A DNA stretch of 64,000 nt from Escherichia coli O127:H6 str. E2348/69 (GCF_000026545.1 NC_011601.1), one strand, 5' to 3'; counted from the stretch's first letter, positions 33,201 through 39,200 are shown. Made by a program: the numbers.

Positions 33201-36200
33201 CCAGTCTGGAAACGGCATCTTCATCGGTAATGAAGTGCGTCATATTGGCATATTCACCCACCATCGGCGTGAGCGGCAGTTGCAAACCGTGACCCAAATC
33301 TACCACCACGCCGCCATCGCCAATCTGCATAATCAAGGTGCCATTAGCTGATGAAATCAATCCCAAAAACGTGCAGGCAAAATCGCGAACCGCTAATTCT
33401 TTGGCTTCCGCCTCGGCAAAAAGTCGCTGACGAATGGTCAGCACAATGTCCGTTGCGAGAACATCATTAAGCCCCAATTCCCCGCCCTGCACTTTTTGCG
33501 ACATATAAGCCATCGCTTCATTGACGGCGAGCATCGCACCTTCGCCTCCCTGCGAGGCGCTACCTGCGCCATCAGCGACAAATACCGACAATAATGGCTG
33601 CTGGTCATTTAACCAGGCAACCTGCATCTGGCAGGCATCCTGGCAAGGCAAGTCCGCGCTGATGTGCGACGTTCCAACGGCTGATGCATAGACCAGACGC
33701 CAGCTCACACTGACGTCCAGCCTTTTGGCGCTTCCAGCACAACTTCCGTTCCCGGCGTGGAGCGGGAAACCGAACGCAGCGAACTGGATAACCAGCTAAA
33801 CAGTTCACGGAATTGTAACCCCTGCAGAGACAAAGGCTGACGGACGCTGATTTGAGCCAGCGTCTTCATATCCGCCCCCTGAACACCGATGGAAAAGAAG
33901 GCAAACTTCTTATCTTCTTCCCCCTGAAACACTTTGTTGGCGGCAGCCTGCCACTCATCGGTTGGTGCACCATCGGTGATCAGGAAAATCCACGGACGAT
34001 AATAGGAAATACCATTGGCACGATATTCACGTTTCCGCTCCTCAACCATATCCAGGGCTTTGGTAATGGCAGCGCCCATTGGTGTATCGCCCTGGGCAAA
34101 CAGGATGGGCGGGAAAAAATTAGCGGCGCTGGTAAAGGGTTGTTCCACATGCACCGGGCCGAACGTCACAATGCCGAGTTCCACTCTTTTTAAGGCCAGC
34201 GAATCGGCAAGCAGCTCATCGCGAAAGGTAATCAATCCGGCGTTAAGTTCATTAATGGGTCTGCCGCTCATCGAGCCAGAAACATCCAGCAGCAAAATGC
34301 AGGGGCAACGAGGTTCCGGGTTACTGGCAAAATCGCTGGTGGCAAACGTGATTTGTTCGCTCATAAGAAATCCTTTCTTAGAGTATTATTGAGATCCGGT
34401 ATCATACCGACTGCAATAATGAAATAAGAGCAAACGAAGAAACTTTCAGAATTAGGCCCGGCGGCGCAGAAAATTTTGCTATTCGCCTCGCAAGAACGAA
34501 GAGCCGTCGATTGACACTAAGGGCGGAGTGACATAATTTCAGGAGTGAGGGTAGAGCGGGGTTTCCCCCGCCCTGGTAGTCTTAGTAAGCTGGCCAGCTA
34601 ATGACTAAGAGCACCACAATGATGAGTAGCTTCATCATGACCCTTTCCTTATTTAAGGCCCCTTCCTCGGGCTGTCTCTTATACACAAATCCCCACCCGG
34701 GGATTTGTGATGTCTGTCAGTCTGCTTTAGGGGGACTCTTTCCATCCGGTAGTTTCCTTCCTCCCCGGCAGCGATTTTTTGAACTTTTTCCTCACCCGTT
34801 GATCTTCTCTTATATTTCATTTTCTTCGGGTCTGTTATGGTACTTTCTGATTGTTATTCATGGGCTAACGAGCAGTTTGGACATGCCCGTCTCGGTGATC
34901 CGCGTCGTACACGACGCCTTGTGTCACTGGCCTCTTCTCTCGCTCAGCATGCAGGTCTTTCTATTGTGAAATCATCCCAGTCCACTGCTCAGGTTGAAGG
35001 TGCGTACCGCCTGATACGTAACCCGTCTGTGTCCCCGCAAGCCATTGCCGAAGCCGGATTTACCGCCACTGTAAGGGCATGTGAGGCTCATCCGCTGCTC
35101 CTCGCGCTGGAAGACACCACCACCATTAACTTCAGTCACAGTACGGCATCTGATGACCTGGGGAATACCACCACTAACCCGAAGACGCGCGGGCTGCTGG
35201 CTCACTCTGTCCTGATGTACGCCCCCGACAGCGCCCTGCCAGTCGGTCTTATCGAACAGCAGCGCTGGAGTCGTGCCACGGACACCTACGGTGTTAAGCA
35301 CCAGCGAAAAGAACGTCCCTATGAAGAAAAAGAAAGTTACCGCTGGCAGCAGGCTTCGGAGCGCATGGCCGAACGGCTGGGGGAGATACAGAAACGGGTA
35401 ATCACTGTCTGTGACCGGGAAGCGGATATCTGGCATTACCTGCATTATAAAGTCAGCCACGGGCAGCGCTTCGTGGTGCGTGCAGCACAGAATCGCCGGC
35501 TGGAAGAAGCACCCGGCAAGCTCTTCGAACTGCCGGAAGTCCTGGCAACCGCGGGAAGCCACACGCTGAATGTGATGCAAAAAGGCGGGCGGGCAGCCCG
35601 CCAGGCCCGGATGTTCATCAGTTACAGCGAAGTCAGCATAAAAAATCCCGACAACAGCGGCCAGGCGCTCCCGCTCACGTATGTCTGTTGCCGGGAGCAG
35701 GCAGAGGACGGCGCCTGCTGGCATCTGCTGACGTCAGAAAAAGTGGCGAGTGCCGCCGATGCGCGACGTATCGTCAGCCATTACGAGCGACGCTGGCTGA
35801 TAGAGGAATACCACAAGGCGTGGAAAAGTGGTGGTACATGTGTGGAATCGCTGCGAATGCAGACCCGGGATAACCTCGAGCGCATGGTGGTTATCAAGGC
35901 GTTTATCGCGGTGCGGGTGCTGGGCCTGCGGCAGGGCGGTATCAGTGAAGAAACACAAAATGACAGCTGTGAGAAAATACTGACGCCGACAGAGTGGAAA
36001 CTGCTGTGGGTTAAGCTGGAAGGAAAACCGCTTCCGTCACAGATGCCGACACTGAAATGGGCCTGTCTGAAACTGGCGAAACTGGGGCGATGGCATGACA
36101 GCAAACGCACCGGTCGCCCCGGTTGGGTAGTCATGTGGGATGGCTGGTTCAGACTTCAGGATATGGTTGAGGGTTACCTGGTGATGAAGTCTCTTGATCA

Positions 36201-39200
36201 GGAGATCTGATCAAGAGACAGTCCTCGGGAGGGGTTTTCCCGTTTCAGCGTCCCGCTGAAATCATCGGCTTACCTCCTTTCGCCATGCACGTAGTCTATC
36301 GCTAACGCGTAGATAAAATAGTTTCATGTGTTATTACTGGATGCGTGCTCGCAAATGTGCCCGCCATTCAGACGATTCCCGATAGTGTTTCATAATTCCT
36401 CCATTTTTCTCCCTTATTGGCTGGCTACACTAGTATCATTCCGCGAAACGTTTCAGGAAGAGAAACTCTTAACGATGAAAGGCAGTTATAAATCCCGTTG
36501 GGTAATCGTAATCGTGGTGGTTATCGCCGCCATCGCCGCATTCTGGTTCTGGCAAGGCCGCAATGACTCCCGGAGTGCAGCCCCAGGGGCGACGAAACAA
36601 GCGCAGCAATCGCCAGCGGGTGGTCGCCGTGGTATGCGTTCCGGCCCATTAGCCCCGGTTCAGGCGGCGACCGCCGTAGAACAGGCAGTTCCGCGTTACC
36701 TCACCGGGCTTGGCACCATTACCGCCGCTAATACCGTTACGGTGCGCAGCCGCGTGGACGGCCAACTGATAGCGTTACATTTCCAGGAAGGCCAGCAGGT
36801 CAAAGCAGGCGATTTACTGGCAGAAATTGACCCCAGCCAGTTCAAAGTTGCATTAGCACAAGCCCAGGGCCAACTGGCAAAAGATAAAGCCACGCTTGCC
36901 AACGCCCGCCGTGACCTGGCGCGTTATCAGCAACTGGCAAAAACCAATCTCGTATCTCGTCAGGAACTGGATGCCCAACAAGCGCTGGTCAGTGAAACCG
37001 AAGGCACCATTAAGGCTGATGAAGCAAGCGTCGCCAGCGCGCAGCTGCAACTCGACTGGAGCCGTATCACCGCACCAGTTGATGGTCGCGTTGGTCTCAA
37101 GCAGGTTGATGTTGGTAACCAAATCTCCAGTGGCGACACCACCGGGATTGTGGTGATCACCCAAACACATCCTATCGATCTGGTCTTTACTTTGCCGGAA
37201 AGCGATATCGCCACCGTTGTACAGGCACAAAAAGCCGGAAAACCGCTGGTGGTAGAAGCCTGGGATCGCACCAACTCGAAGAAGTTAAGTGAAGGCACGC
37301 TGTTAAGCCTTGATAACCAAATCGATGCCACTACCGGTACGATTAAAGTGAAAGCACGCTTTAATAATCAGGATGATGCGCTGTTTCCCAATCAGTTTGT
37401 TAACGCGCGCATGTTAGTCGACACAGAGCAAAACGCTGTGGTGATCCCAACAGCCGCCCTGCAAATGGGCAATGAAGGCCATTTTGTCTGGGTGCTGAAT
37501 AGCGAAAACAAGGTCAGCAAACATCTGGTGACGCCGGGCATTCAGGACAGTCAGAAAGTGGTGATCCGCGCAGGTATTTCTGCGGGCGACCGCGTAGTGA
37601 CAGACGGCATTGATCGCCTGACCGAAGGGGCGAAAGTGGAAGTAGTGGAAGCCCAGAGCGCCACCACTCCGGAAGAGAAAGCCACCAGCCGCGAATACGC
37701 GAAAAAAGGAGCACGCTCCTGATGCAGGTGTTACCCCCGAGCAGCACAGGCGGCCCGTCGCGCCTGTTTATTATGCGTCCTGTCGCCACCACGCTGCTGA
37801 TGGTGGCGATCTTACTCGCCGGGATTATCGGTTATCAAGCCCTGCCCGTTTCGGCGCTGCCGGAAGTGGACTATCCGACCATTCAGGTAGTCACGCTCTA
37901 CCCAGGTGCGAGCCCGGATGTCATGACCTCTGCCGTTACCGCGCCGCTTGAACGCCAGTTTGGGCAGATGTCTGGCCTGAAACAGATGTCGTCGCAAAGT
38001 TCCGGCGGTGCGTCAGTTATCACTTTGCAGTTCCAGCTAACATTACCGCTCGATGTCGCCGAGCAGGAAGTGCAGGCTGCGATTAACGCTGCGACCAACT
38101 TGTTGCCGAGCGATCTGCCTAACCCGCCGGTTTACAGCAAAGTGAACCCGGCAGATCCGCCGATCATGACGCTCGCTGTCACCTCAACCGCCATGCCGAT
38201 GACGCAAGTGGAAGATATGGTGGAAACCCGCGTCGCGCAGAAAATCTCGCAGATTTCCGGCGTCGGCCTGGTGACACTTTCCGGCGGTCAGCGTCCGGCT
38301 GTTCGCGTCAAACTTAACGCTCAGGCGATTGCCGCCCTCGGCCTGACCAGCGAAACCGTGCGCACCGCCATTACCGGCGCTAACGTCAACTCGGCAAAAG
38401 GTAGCCTCGACGGCCCTTCTCGTGCGGTTACGCTTTCCGCGAACGACCAGATGCAATCCGCCGAAGAGTATCGCCAGCTAATCATCGCCTACCAGAACGG
38501 CGCGCCGATTCGTCTGGGCGATGTCGCAACCGTAGAGCAAGGTGCAGAAAACAGCTGGCTTGGCGCATGGGCTAACAAAGAACAGGCCATTGTGATGAAT
38601 GTTCAGCGCCAGCCCGGTGCTAACATTATCTCCACCGCCGACAGCATTCGGCAGATGCTGCCACAGCTCACCGAGAGTCTGCCGAAATCGGTGAAGGTGA
38701 CGGTACTTTCTGACCGTACCACCAATATTCGCGCATCCGTGGATGATACTCAGTTTGAATTGATGATGGCTATCGCGCTGGTAGTCATGATTATCTATCT
38801 GTTTTTGCGTAATATTCCGGCGACCATCATTCCCGGCGTCGCAGTGCCGCTGTCGTTAATCGGCACCTTCGCGGTCATGGTGTTTCTCGATTTTTCAATC
38901 AATAACCTGACGCTGATGGCGTTAACTATCGCCACCGGATTTGTGGTCGATGACGCCATCGTGGTGATCGAAAACATTTCCCGCTATATCGAAAAAGGCG
39001 AAAAACCGCTGGCGGCGGCGCTCAAAGGCGCAGGTGAAATCGGTTTTACCATTATCTCGCTGACCTTCTCGCTGATTGCAGTGCTGATCCCGCTACTGTT
39101 TATGGGCGATATCGTCGGGCGACTGTTCCGCGAATTTGCTATTACTCTGGCAGTCGCGATTTTGATCTCAGCCGTGGTGTCGCTGACCCTGACACCAATG

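What the first reader, a model, noticed from the sequence alone, without database searches (positions are those of the whole stretch)
34500..36474. Second IS copy inserted in the terminator/promoter overlap of a sib/ibs type I toxin-antitoxin locus, 253 bp upstream of mdtA
An 18-aa Ibs-like toxin ORF (34582..34638, minus strand) and an antisense Sib promoter (TTGACA at 34511) are present. The IS (34672..36221) sits 33 bp beyond the ibs start codon, with TSD tcctcggg. The reconstructed pre-insertion sequence forms a GC-rich imperfect hairpin plus TTTT, i.e. the Sib terminator, which also overlaps where the ibs promoter/5' UTR should be. The insertion may therefore have silenced the toxin and truncated the antitoxin RNA, and it places a co-oriented transposase gene just upstream of the mdtABCD-baeSR promoter.
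Basis: partly seen in the sequence, partly recalled or inferred. Interest (0 to 1): 0.7.

Follow-up and report, generated by a model that had tools for sequence, protein, structure and literature searches.

The report
ISEc13 inserted in Sib terminator hot spot
A Tn5-like insertion sequence (ISEc13) sits in the terminator hairpin of a Sib/Ibs toxin-antitoxin locus in EPEC strain E2348/69, apparently because ISEc13 strongly prefers the motif CCYCY-N8-RGRGG, which this terminator matches perfectly and where ISEc13 has inserted at least six separate times in E. coli.

Summary
The window is the EPEC E2348/69 chromosome. A full-length Sib RNA gene (Rfam, 138 bits) overlaps an intact 18-aa ibs ORF. 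It is followed by a 1550-bp ISEc13 with an 8-bp duplication, TCCTCGGG. An IS-free allele from another strain matches the reconstructed empty site exactly.

The insertion sits at the apex of the Sib terminator hairpin. By homology to the mapped ibsC/ibsD start sites, it also lies at about +32 to +39 of the ibs 5' UTR. So Sib loses its terminator rather than being truncated, and the ibs RBS and ORF are cut off from their promoter. No expression data exist.

- 23 distinct insertion events (46 half-sites) all fit 5'-CCYCY|N8-9|RGRGG-3'.
- Sib terminators were hit at least six times independently, in both orientations, at sibA, sibB, sibE and hybrid alleles.

Chance landing on a preferred target therefore explains the insertion better than selection on ibs or mdtA. 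The mdtA BaeR box and promoter are intact.

The closest known analogue is the IS186 rule GGGG(N6/7)CCCC. I rate this an ordinary insertion that exposes an apparently undescribed target rule, of moderate interest.

The parts
34511..34539 (+). Sib promoter: -35 TTGACA at 34511-34516 and a -10 region at 34532-34539 (CATAATTT)
   Evidence: The Rfam SIB_RNA model starts at this TTGACA. The sequence is identical to the K-12 sibA promoter.
34547..34671 (+). Sib antitoxin RNA body. The +1 near 34547 is placed by homology to SibC +1. The body is intact up to the 5' half of its terminator hairpin (34657-34671).
   Evidence: Rfam hit of 138 bits. SibC 5' end taken from primers in PMC2943612. Fold.
34582..34638 (-). 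ibs toxin ORF, 18 aa (MMKLLIIVVLLVISWPAY), with its Shine-Dalgarno sequence at 34641-34649
   Evidence: RefSeq WP_100249772.1, 'Ibs family toxin'.
34664..34671 (.). Left copy of the 8-bp target-site duplication TCCTCGGG, which is the loop and apex of the Sib terminator
34672..36221 (+). ISEc13 (IS4 family, IS50/Tn5 subgroup), 1550 bp. The left end is CTGTCTCTTATACACAAAT. The right end is the reverse complement of CTGTCTCTTGATCAGATCT.
   Evidence: 100% identical to the ISEc13 copies of E2348/69 and to the second window copy.
34837..36210 (+). ISEc13 transposase gene, 457 aa
   Evidence: Homologous to Tn5 transposase over its full length, E 6e-84. NCBIfam NF033590, 514 bits. Pfam Tnp_DNA_bind and DDE_Tnp_1.
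35584..35602 (-). Intrinsic-terminator-like hairpin inside the IS on the ibs strand (GGCGGGCTGCCCGCCCGCC followed by TTTTT). It would stop transcripts coming from the displaced ibs promoter.
36222..36229 (.). Right copy of the target-site duplication TCCTCGGG
36230..36238 (+). Orphaned 3' half of the Sib terminator (AGGGG plus TTTT)
36230..36300 (-). Displaced ibs promoter region and the first ~31 nt of the ibs 5' UTR. The +1 near 36260 is inferred by homology to the mapped ibsC/ibsD +1 sites.
   Evidence: T7-template primers GCAGCATGGGGCTG and GTCAGCAGGGGGCTG in PMC2943612 compared with the window minus strand TTCAGCGGGACGCTGAAACGGG. The ibsC mRNA is 159 nt and SibC is 141 nt.
36404..36421 (+). 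mdtA BaeR-box-like sequence TTTTTCTCCCTTATTGGC, followed by the mdtA promoter and the ATG at 36475. All are intact.
   Evidence: Identical to K-12 and to the IS-free allele. Naming it a BaeR box rests on my recollection of Nishino et al. 2005.
24096..25645 (+). First ISEc13 copy in the window, with TSD GTTGGGGG. It interrupts yegE/dgcE at a CCTCT-N8-GGGGT site.

Best explanation
This is a lineage-specific insertion of ISEc13, a Tn5/IS50-type cut-and-paste IS, into the apex of the intrinsic terminator of a single-copy Sib/Ibs type I toxin-antitoxin locus. That locus has the sibA promoter fused to a sibB body and lies between yegL and mdtA in EPEC E2348/69.

Why it is there. ISEc13 selects targets by a symmetric flanking motif, 5'-C-C-Y-C-Y | 8 (or 9) duplicated bp | R-G-R-G-G-3'. 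I infer that each subunit of the transposase dimer reads one half-site. The SibB/D/E-type terminator CCCCT-TCCTCGGG-AGGGG is a perfect match, with the duplicated 8 bp centred on the hairpin dyad. GC-rich terminator hairpins in general fit the motif, which is why so many copies lie between convergent genes.

What it does.
- Shown by sequence: the insertion separates the two halves of the Sib terminator. It also splits the ibs leader 25-33 nt upstream of the AUG.
- Inferred: Sib is still made from its intact promoter and keeps its recognition domains, but it no longer terminates and reads in the sense direction into the transposase gene.
- Inferred: ibs is disconnected from its promoter, and an internal minus-strand terminator insulates it, so the toxin is probably silent.
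- mdtABCD keeps its own BaeR-dependent promoter. Any read-through from Sib or tnp into mdtA is possible but unproven.
For: Identity and anatomy.

Empty site.

Target rule:
- 23 distinct site-by-orientation events give 46 half-sites. C occupies -4 and -2 in 46/46, a pyrimidine occupies -3 in 46/46, and -1 is T in 33, C in 10 and G in 3. The TSD is 8 bp in 19 events and 9 bp in 4.
- The 13 events obtained without any Sib-flank query (transposase look-ups, plus the yegE copy) show the same invariants in 26/26 half-sites.
- In the IS-free reconstruction of the window (60.9 kb) only 5 sites match the core CYCY-N8-RGRG, and 2 of them carry the two ISEc13 copies. The only full CCYCY-N8-RGRGG match is the Sib terminator.

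Recurrent independent hits on Sib terminators:
- E2348/69, hybrid sib, + orientation.
- Z1322HEC0010, sibB, + orientation, with an IS variant only 98.07% identical.
- A25, hybrid sib, opposite orientation.
- EC22, an allele with four ibs copies.
- FDAARGOS_144 and A21, sibA terminator, TSD CCCGGAGA.
- sibE in both orientations.

The mog-satP terminator is also hit in both orientations.

ibs start site beyond the Sib terminator: PMC2943612.

Folding, the internal terminator and the absence of a strong outward promoter.
Against: - There are no transcript data for this strain, so silencing of ibs and read-through of Sib are inferences.
- The ibs +1 is transferred by homology (11 of 15 positions identical to the ibsD primer region) and was not mapped for ibsB.
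- A TATAAG on the minus strand at the IS left end (34679-34684) could be a weak outward -10 element, which the consensus scan would not report.
- Seven of the 23 events were retrieved with Sib-flank queries, which inflates the share of Sib sites, although it does not affect the motif.
- Some Sib-site events (A25 and EC22) could be one insertion followed by changes in sib copy number.
- The target rule comes from resident copies that have survived selection, not from de novo transposition.
Confidence: 0.8

Rival explanations
1. Adaptive silencing. ISEc13 recurs at sib/ibs loci because inactivating the Ibs toxin, or rewiring Sib, is beneficial, and selection rather than target preference explains the recurrence.
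For: At least six independent Sib-terminator insertions. In FDAARGOS_144 and A25, 2 of about 8-10 copies lie in Sib terminators.
Against: The same flanking motif is found at all non-TA sites: mog-satP, ybaY-atl, ppiC-ilvC, agp-yccJ, a plasmid site and coding sites. The ibs ORF stays intact, and identical to the IS-free allele, in the three alleles that carry this Ibs protein. Both orientations occur. The motif alone predicts the site.
Confidence: 0.1
2. Structure-directed targeting. The transposase recognises extruded hairpins or cruciforms, or stalled transcription at terminators, rather than a DNA sequence.
For: Most sites are perfect inverted repeats of 4-10 bp flanking the TSD, and many are followed by T-runs between convergent genes.
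Against: Polarity is always C-rich at the 5' side and G-rich at the 3' side, and never the reverse. C at -4 and -2 is invariant. Five of the 23 events have no flank complementarity directly next to the TSD but still carry the half-site motif. Examples are yegE (GCCTCT and GACCCC), L008, L009, L023 and L024.
Confidence: 0.1
3. Regulatory co-option of mdtABCD-baeSR. The co-oriented IS, now fed by the unterminated Sib promoter, raises BaeR-independent expression of the efflux operon, and the insertion was kept for that reason.
For: The Sib terminator that normally insulates mdtA is destroyed. No strong + strand terminator is predicted between the Sib promoter and mdtA. Z1322HEC0010 has the same orientation.
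Against: The IS end is 253 bp from the ATG and 182 bp upstream of an intact BaeR box and promoter. A25, CP090611.1, EC22, FDAARGOS_144 and A21 carry the opposite orientation at the same locus. There are no expression data.
Confidence: 0.1
4. A single ancestral Sib insertion spread by homologous recombination, so the recurrence would be apparent only.
For: A25 and EC22 share orientation and TSD. Several strains share the sibE insertion.
Against: The insertions lie in three different Sib paralogues, at two chromosomal loci, in both orientations, with different TSDs (TCCTCGGG and TCTCCGGG types) and with two IS lineages only 98% identical.
Confidence: 0.03

Closest known systems
IS186 (IS4 family) target rule 5'-GGGG(N6/N7)CCCC-3' (Lee et al. 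2016, NAR, PMC5009759)
   Same: Both are IS4-family elements. In both, a palindromic GC-rich motif flanks a duplicated core whose own sequence is not conserved. Both insert in either orientation at one site, have few sites per genome, and hit the same sites repeatedly.
   Different: The polarity is reversed: C-run at 5' and G-run at 3', so the motif reads CCYCY...RGRGG on both strands. The core is 8-9 bp rather than 6-7. The half-site has an alternating C-Y-C-Y signature. The transposase belongs to the Tn5/IS50 subgroup, not the IS186 subgroup. The ISEc13 motif coincides with terminator hairpins.
Tn5/IS50
   Same: The transposase is homologous over its full length (E 6e-84). From my own knowledge, the ends are almost the Tn5 outside end and exactly the Tn5 inside end. 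The TSD is 8-9 bp.
   Different: As I recall (Goryshin et al. 1998), Tn5 has only a weak, degenerate target consensus, A-GNTYWRANC-T. ISEc13 shows invariant positions outside the duplication.
Sib/Ibs type I toxin-antitoxin loci of E. coli K-12 (Fozo et al. 2008; Han et al. 2010, PMC2943612)
   Same: The Sib RNA, the Ibs ORF, the promoter and, before the insertion, the terminator all match. The chromosomal position is the same as sibA/sibB of K-12.
   Different: The allele has one copy (sibA promoter fused to sibB body) rather than two. The terminator and the ibs leader are split by 1550 bp of IS.
Chromosomal hok/sok loci of E. coli K-12 flanked or inactivated by IS150 and IS186 (Pedersen and Gerdes 1999; recalled, not retrieved here)
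   Same: A chromosomal type I TA locus interrupted by an IS close to the toxin reading frame, with the toxin ORF left intact.
   Different: The TA family and the IS are different. Here the cause can be traced to a defined target motif in the antitoxin's terminator. I could not retrieve the paper, so this comparison rests on memory.
REP/BIME-targeting ISs (IS1397, ISKpn1, IS621; ISRm22 in the IS4 family; Tobes and Pareja 2006, PMC1525189)
   Same: These ISs home to extragenic palindromes, which gives relatively harmless intergenic landing sites.
   Different: ISEc13's targets are not a repeat family. They are any sequence with the short symmetric motif, including coding DNA such as yegE.

Membership tests
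Sib/Ibs type I toxin-antitoxin | The antitoxin RNA matches the SIB_RNA covariance model above its gathering score | tested here: met
   138 bits against 56, full model 1-147
Sib/Ibs type I toxin-antitoxin | An 18-19 aa hydrophobic Ibs ORF lies entirely within and antisense to Sib | tested here: met
   MMKLLIIVVLLVISWPAY at 34582..34638 (-), 17 of 18 residues identical to K-12 IbsB
Sib/Ibs type I toxin-antitoxin | An intrinsic terminator ends Sib at about 135-140 nt | tested here: not met
   The hairpin is split by the IS in this allele. It is present in the reconstructed and IS-free alleles.
Sib/Ibs type I toxin-antitoxin | The ibs promoter and leader are contiguous with the ORF | tested here: not met
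   The inferred +1 near 36260 is 1550 bp further from the ORF than in the IS-free allele
Sib/Ibs type I toxin-antitoxin | Ibs is toxic and is repressed by its cognate Sib | not testable with these tools
   Needs expression and co-transformation assays
ISEc13 / IS4 family, IS50 subgroup | A single-ORF DDE transposase homologous to Tn5 transposase | tested here: met
   E 6e-84 to PDB Tn5 transposase chains. NF033590, 514 bits against a cut-off of 160.
ISEc13 / IS4 family, IS50 subgroup | Size of 1350-1550 bp, ends starting with CT, and direct repeats of 8-9 bp (De Palmenaer et al. 2008, PMC2266710) | tested here: met
   1550 bp, CTGTCTCTT at both ends, TSD of 8 or 9 bp
ISEc13 / IS4 family, IS50 subgroup | Identity to the named element ISEc13 | tested here: met
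   RefSeq annotation 'IS4-like element ISEc13 family transposase' on 100%-identical copies. ISfinder itself was not consulted.
ISs with a flanking-palindrome target rule (IS186-like behaviour) | Conserved symmetric bases outside a variable duplicated core | tested here: met
   46 of 46 half-sites have C at -4 and -2 and a pyrimidine at -3
ISs with a flanking-palindrome target rule (IS186-like behaviour) | Both orientations occur at one site, and the same site is hit independently more than once | tested here: met
   sibE, hybrid sib and mog-satP are each occupied in both orientations
ISs with a flanking-palindrome target rule (IS186-like behaviour) | The rule holds for de novo transposition events | not testable with these tools
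   Only resident copies in sequenced genomes were examined

The most novel reading that the evidence does not exclude
ISEc13 encodes a natural Tn5-type transposase with intrinsic, strongly sequence-specific target capture (CCYCY-N8/9-RGRGG). This makes GC-rich terminator hairpins, including those of the Sib antitoxins, predictable landing pads. It would give a comparative handle on how Tn5-family enzymes read target DNA. It would also explain how this IS reached about 30 copies in E2348/69 mostly without hitting genes.
Probability: 0.7. Interest if true: 0.55.

Novelty: new member of a known kind. Interest (0 to 1): 0.42.

Why it matters
For E2348/69, the prototype EPEC strain, one of its Sib/Ibs modules is structurally broken. 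A constitutive sRNA promoter now points into a transposase gene and, beyond it, towards mdtABCD. Anyone studying sRNAs, type I toxins or BaeSR-regulated efflux in this strain should know this.

More generally, the data give a simple and testable target rule for ISEc13. Full-length copies occur in about 870 of 5,426 complete E. coli genomes and on many plasmids. The rule predicts where new copies will land, which is mostly at terminators. It explains recurrent "parallel" insertions without invoking selection. It also extends the IS186-type principle of flanking-palindrome recognition to the Tn5 subgroup.

The insertion itself is an ordinary, already-annotated strain polymorphism.

Tried and rejected
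- The E2348/69 genome paper (PMC2612414) is not held, so I could not check what its authors said about this IS.
- A full-text search for 'ISEc13' found 8 papers, each with a single occurrence of the term and with titles and abstracts about resistance or genome surveys; I did not open them. The 2008 IS4-family review does not mention ISEc elements.
- A search for the hok/IS186 precedent did not retrieve the primary paper.
- The sigma-70 consensus scan found neither an ibs promoter nor an outward IS promoter. This is uninformative for weak promoters, so I placed the ibs start by homology instead.
- The scan flagged a junction 'terminator' at 34657-34673, but minimum-free-energy folding does not support it. 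I do not rely on it.
- My first motif definition, which required C at -5, missed the yegE site. I replaced it with the core CYCY-N8-RGRG.
- I considered a scan of GTDB or metagenome contigs for ISEc13 ends to enlarge the site sample, and dropped it because the cost was not justified by what it would add.

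
Full report
**1. What is there**

The window matches the chromosome of enteropathogenic E. coli O127:H6 strain E2348/69 at 100% identity. The gene order is yegL, then ibs/sib, then the IS, then mdtABCD-baeSR.

- Rfam's SIB_RNA model matches 34511..34653 (+) end to end, at 138 bits against a gathering score of 56 and E 2.2e-28.
- On the opposite strand, 34582..34638 encodes MMKLLIIVVLLVISWPAY, one residue different from K-12 IbsB. RefSeq annotates it as an Ibs family toxin.
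- The IS spans 34672..36221 (1550 bp). It is 100% identical to a co-oriented copy at 24096..25645.
- It is flanked by an 8-bp direct repeat, TCCTCGGG. It starts 33 bp from the ibs ATG and ends 253 bp before the mdtA ATG at 36475.

Every coordinate in the finding is correct.

**2. The empty site**

Removing the IS and one repeat copy gives a 552-bp yegL-mdtA spacer. It is 99.1% identical to strain 382634_2f, which has no IS there, and identical to it around the junction. This confirms the insertion and the 8-bp duplication.

The alignment with K-12 shows that the E2348/69 allele has one sib copy. The sibA promoter and left flank are joined to the sibB body, which amounts to a 335-bp deletion relative to the K-12 sibA-sibB tandem. 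About 90 of 5,426 genomes carry such a single-copy allele. The IS at this exact junction occurs only in the three E2348/69 assemblies.

**3. What the IS is**

RefSeq names it ISEc13, of the IS4 family.

- Its 457-aa transposase aligns over its full length with the crystallised Tn5 transposase, E 6e-84. It also hits NCBIfam NF033590 at 514 bits.
- Its size, its ends beginning with CT and its 8-9 bp repeats fit the IS50 subgroup as defined by De Palmenaer et al. 2008 (PMC2266710).
- From my own knowledge, the right end (CTGTCTCTTGATCAGATCT) is the Tn5 inside end and the left end is close to the Tn5 outside end.
- E2348/69 assemblies carry 27-30 matching places per chromosome. Full-length copies occur in 873 of 5,426 genomes, and 1,176 of the 4,555 matching places of any length are on plasmids.

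**4. Where exactly it landed**

The pre-insertion sequence AAGGCCCCTTCCTCGGGAGGGGTTTT folds as the Sib terminator, with dG -16.4 kcal/mol for the local hairpin. The duplicated 8 bp are the top of that hairpin and are centred on its dyad.

On the other strand the site lies in the ibs leader. Han et al. 2010 mapped the ibsC and ibsD starts by primer extension. Their T7 templates begin at GCAGCATGGGGCTG and GTCAGCAGGGGGCTG. Their ibsC mRNA is 159 nt against 141 nt for SibC, so ibs transcription starts about 18-20 nt beyond the Sib 3' end (PMC2943612). The homologous sequence here is TTCAGCGGGACGCTGAAACGGG on the minus strand, which places the +1 near 36260.

The IS therefore sits at about +32 to +39 of a leader of about 64 nt. 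The promoter and the first ~39 nt of the leader are left on the mdtA side, and the Shine-Dalgarno sequence and ORF on the yegL side. This placement is by homology. It was not mapped for this paralogue.

**5. Likely consequences (inferred; no expression data exist)**

- Sib keeps its promoter and the regions homologous to the two SibC target-recognition domains. It loses only its terminator.
- Folding of the read-through RNA shows no replacement terminator. There is only a strong hairpin inside the IS left end (CACAAATCCCC...GGGGATTTGTG) that is not followed by a U-run.
- The weak 'terminator-like' hit at the junction is not supported by the fold.
- So Sib should be extended rather than truncated, and it would read in the sense direction into the transposase gene.
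- Transcripts from the displaced ibs promoter would enter the IS antisense. They would meet a strong intrinsic terminator at 35602..35584, with seven G-C pairs followed by TTTTT.
- No consensus outward promoter was found at the IS left end. A TATAAG at 34679-34684 on the minus strand remains a caveat.
- The ibs ORF is intact and identical to that of the IS-free strain.
- mdtA keeps its BaeR-box-like sequence (36404-36421) and its promoter, both identical to K-12. No strong + strand terminator is predicted between the Sib promoter and mdtA. Read-through is therefore conceivable but untested.

**6. The unexpected part: a target hot spot**

The junction search returned other strains with ISEc13 next to ibsE. 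Following this up gave the same 8-bp target in a paralogous locus and at the yegL-mdtA locus:

| Site | Orientation or variant | Strains |
|---|---|---|
| sibE terminator (hldE-yqiK) | one orientation | SCU-115, FDAARGOS_144 |
| sibE terminator (hldE-yqiK) | opposite orientation | Rb-23, TUM14697 |
| yegL-mdtA, sibB terminator | IS variant only 98.07% identical | Z1322HEC0010 |
| yegL-mdtA, single-copy allele | opposite orientation | A25 |
| yegL-mdtA, allele with four ibs copies | opposite orientation | EC22 |
| yegL-mdtA, sibA terminator | TSD CCCGGAGA, flanks CCCTCT and AGAGGG | FDAARGOS_144, A21 |

Junction-specific searches add CP090611.1, B19374, 1002W03, UID2309220013 and OW967795. A conservative count is at least six independent insertions into Sib terminators.

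**7. The rule**

To avoid bias from the Sib queries, I pulled insertion sites by exact transposase sequence. Together with the window copies and a few others, this gives 23 distinct site-by-orientation events and 46 half-sites.

| Position 5' of the duplication | Base counts (of 46) |
|---|---|
| -5 | C 34 |
| -4 | C 46 |
| -3 | C 36, T 10 |
| -2 | C 46 |
| -1 | T 33, C 10, G 3 |

- The duplication is 8 bp in 19 events and 9 bp in 4.
- The 13 events not retrieved through Sib flanks show the same invariants in 26 of 26 half-sites.
- The polarity is always C-rich at 5' and G-rich at 3'.
- Five events lack flank complementarity next to the TSD but still carry the motif. One is the yegE copy in this window, with half-sites GCCTCT and GACCCC. 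This argues for sequence recognition rather than hairpin recognition.
- In the IS-free reconstruction of the window (60.9 kb) the core CYCY-N8-RGRG occurs five times, and two of those five sites carry the two IS copies. The stricter CCYCY-N8-RGRGG occurs once, at the Sib terminator.
- Many sites are terminators between convergent genes: mog-satP (hit in both orientations), ybaY-atl, ppiC-ilvC and agp-yccJ.

**8. Comparison with what is known**

The nearest precedent is IS186, also of the IS4 family. Lee et al. 2016 derived 5'-GGGG(N6/N7)CCCC-3' for it from mutation-accumulation lines. That rule has the palindrome outside a non-conserved duplicated core, insertions in both orientations and repeated hits at a few sites (PMC5009759). 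ISEc13 behaves in the same way. It differs in polarity, spacing and half-site, and it belongs to the Tn5 subgroup, whose founder has only a weak target consensus as far as I recall.

ISs that target REP sequences (PMC1525189) are a looser analogy. IS-interrupted chromosomal hok/sok loci in K-12 are a precedent for a type I TA locus broken by an IS, but I recall that from memory and could not retrieve the paper.

I found no description of ISEc13 target choice in the searchable library.

**9. Verdict**

The insertion itself is an ordinary, annotated strain polymorphism. What adds value is the explanation for it. The Sib terminator is a perfect match to a strong and apparently undescribed ISEc13 target motif, and it has been hit repeatedly. 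This makes recurrent insertion at sib loci a matter of mutational bias rather than evidence of selection.

Noticed in passing
window 24096..25645 (flanks 23400..28600): The first ISEc13 copy splits yegE/dgcE, the MASE1-PAS-GGDEF-EAL diguanylate cyclase, into two pseudogene fragments in E2348/69. From my own knowledge, DgcE feeds the csgD/curli c-di-GMP cascade in K-12, so this strain may be altered in that pathway.
   Followed up: partly
L014 and L015 (CP148541.1, 2304817-2307190 and 2365294-2367667): Two inverted ISEc13 copies about 60 kb apart have swapped target-site duplications (CTCCCCAA and CGAACCAG). This is the signature of an IS-mediated chromosomal inversion in that strain.
   Followed up: no
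L035 (EC22, NZ_CM169479.1 1910785-1916084); L007 (K-12); window 34511..34671: The number of sib/ibs copies between yegL and mdtA varies from one (E2348/69, A25, 382634_2f; sibA promoter fused to sibB body) to two (K-12) to four (EC22). This implies frequent unequal recombination among the repeats.
   Followed up: partly
Hits H44-H55 and H113-H155 (for example NZ_CP042903.1 near 4343000): Hundreds of genomes carry a truncated ISEc13 left end annotated as 'IS4/Tn5 family transposase DNA-binding protein', in the listed rows mostly as the only match in the chromosome. I did not check their phylogroup or sequence type. It looks like an old, degraded copy.
   Followed up: no
(NZ_CP059840.2, NZ_LT827011.1, NZ_LT903847.1): The three E2348/69 chromosome assemblies differ in the number of ISEc13 places (30, 29 and 27). 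This suggests recent ISEc13 gain or loss among laboratory lineages of this strain.
   Followed up: no
window 34685..34710 and 36189..36219: Both IS ends contain strong perfect hairpins: CACAAATCCCC-ACC-CGGGGATTTGTG at the left end, and GTCTCTTGATCAG-GAGAT-CTGATCAAGAGAC spanning the transposase stop codon and the right inverted repeat. They may limit read-through into or out of the element. The right one contains two GATC (Dam) sites.
   Followed up: partly
window 49560..49645 (+), 17659..17697 (-), 3047..3096 (-): Rfam also finds CyaR/RyeE sRNA, a JUMPstart element and the algC RNA motif elsewhere in the window. All are unrelated to this finding.
   Followed up: no
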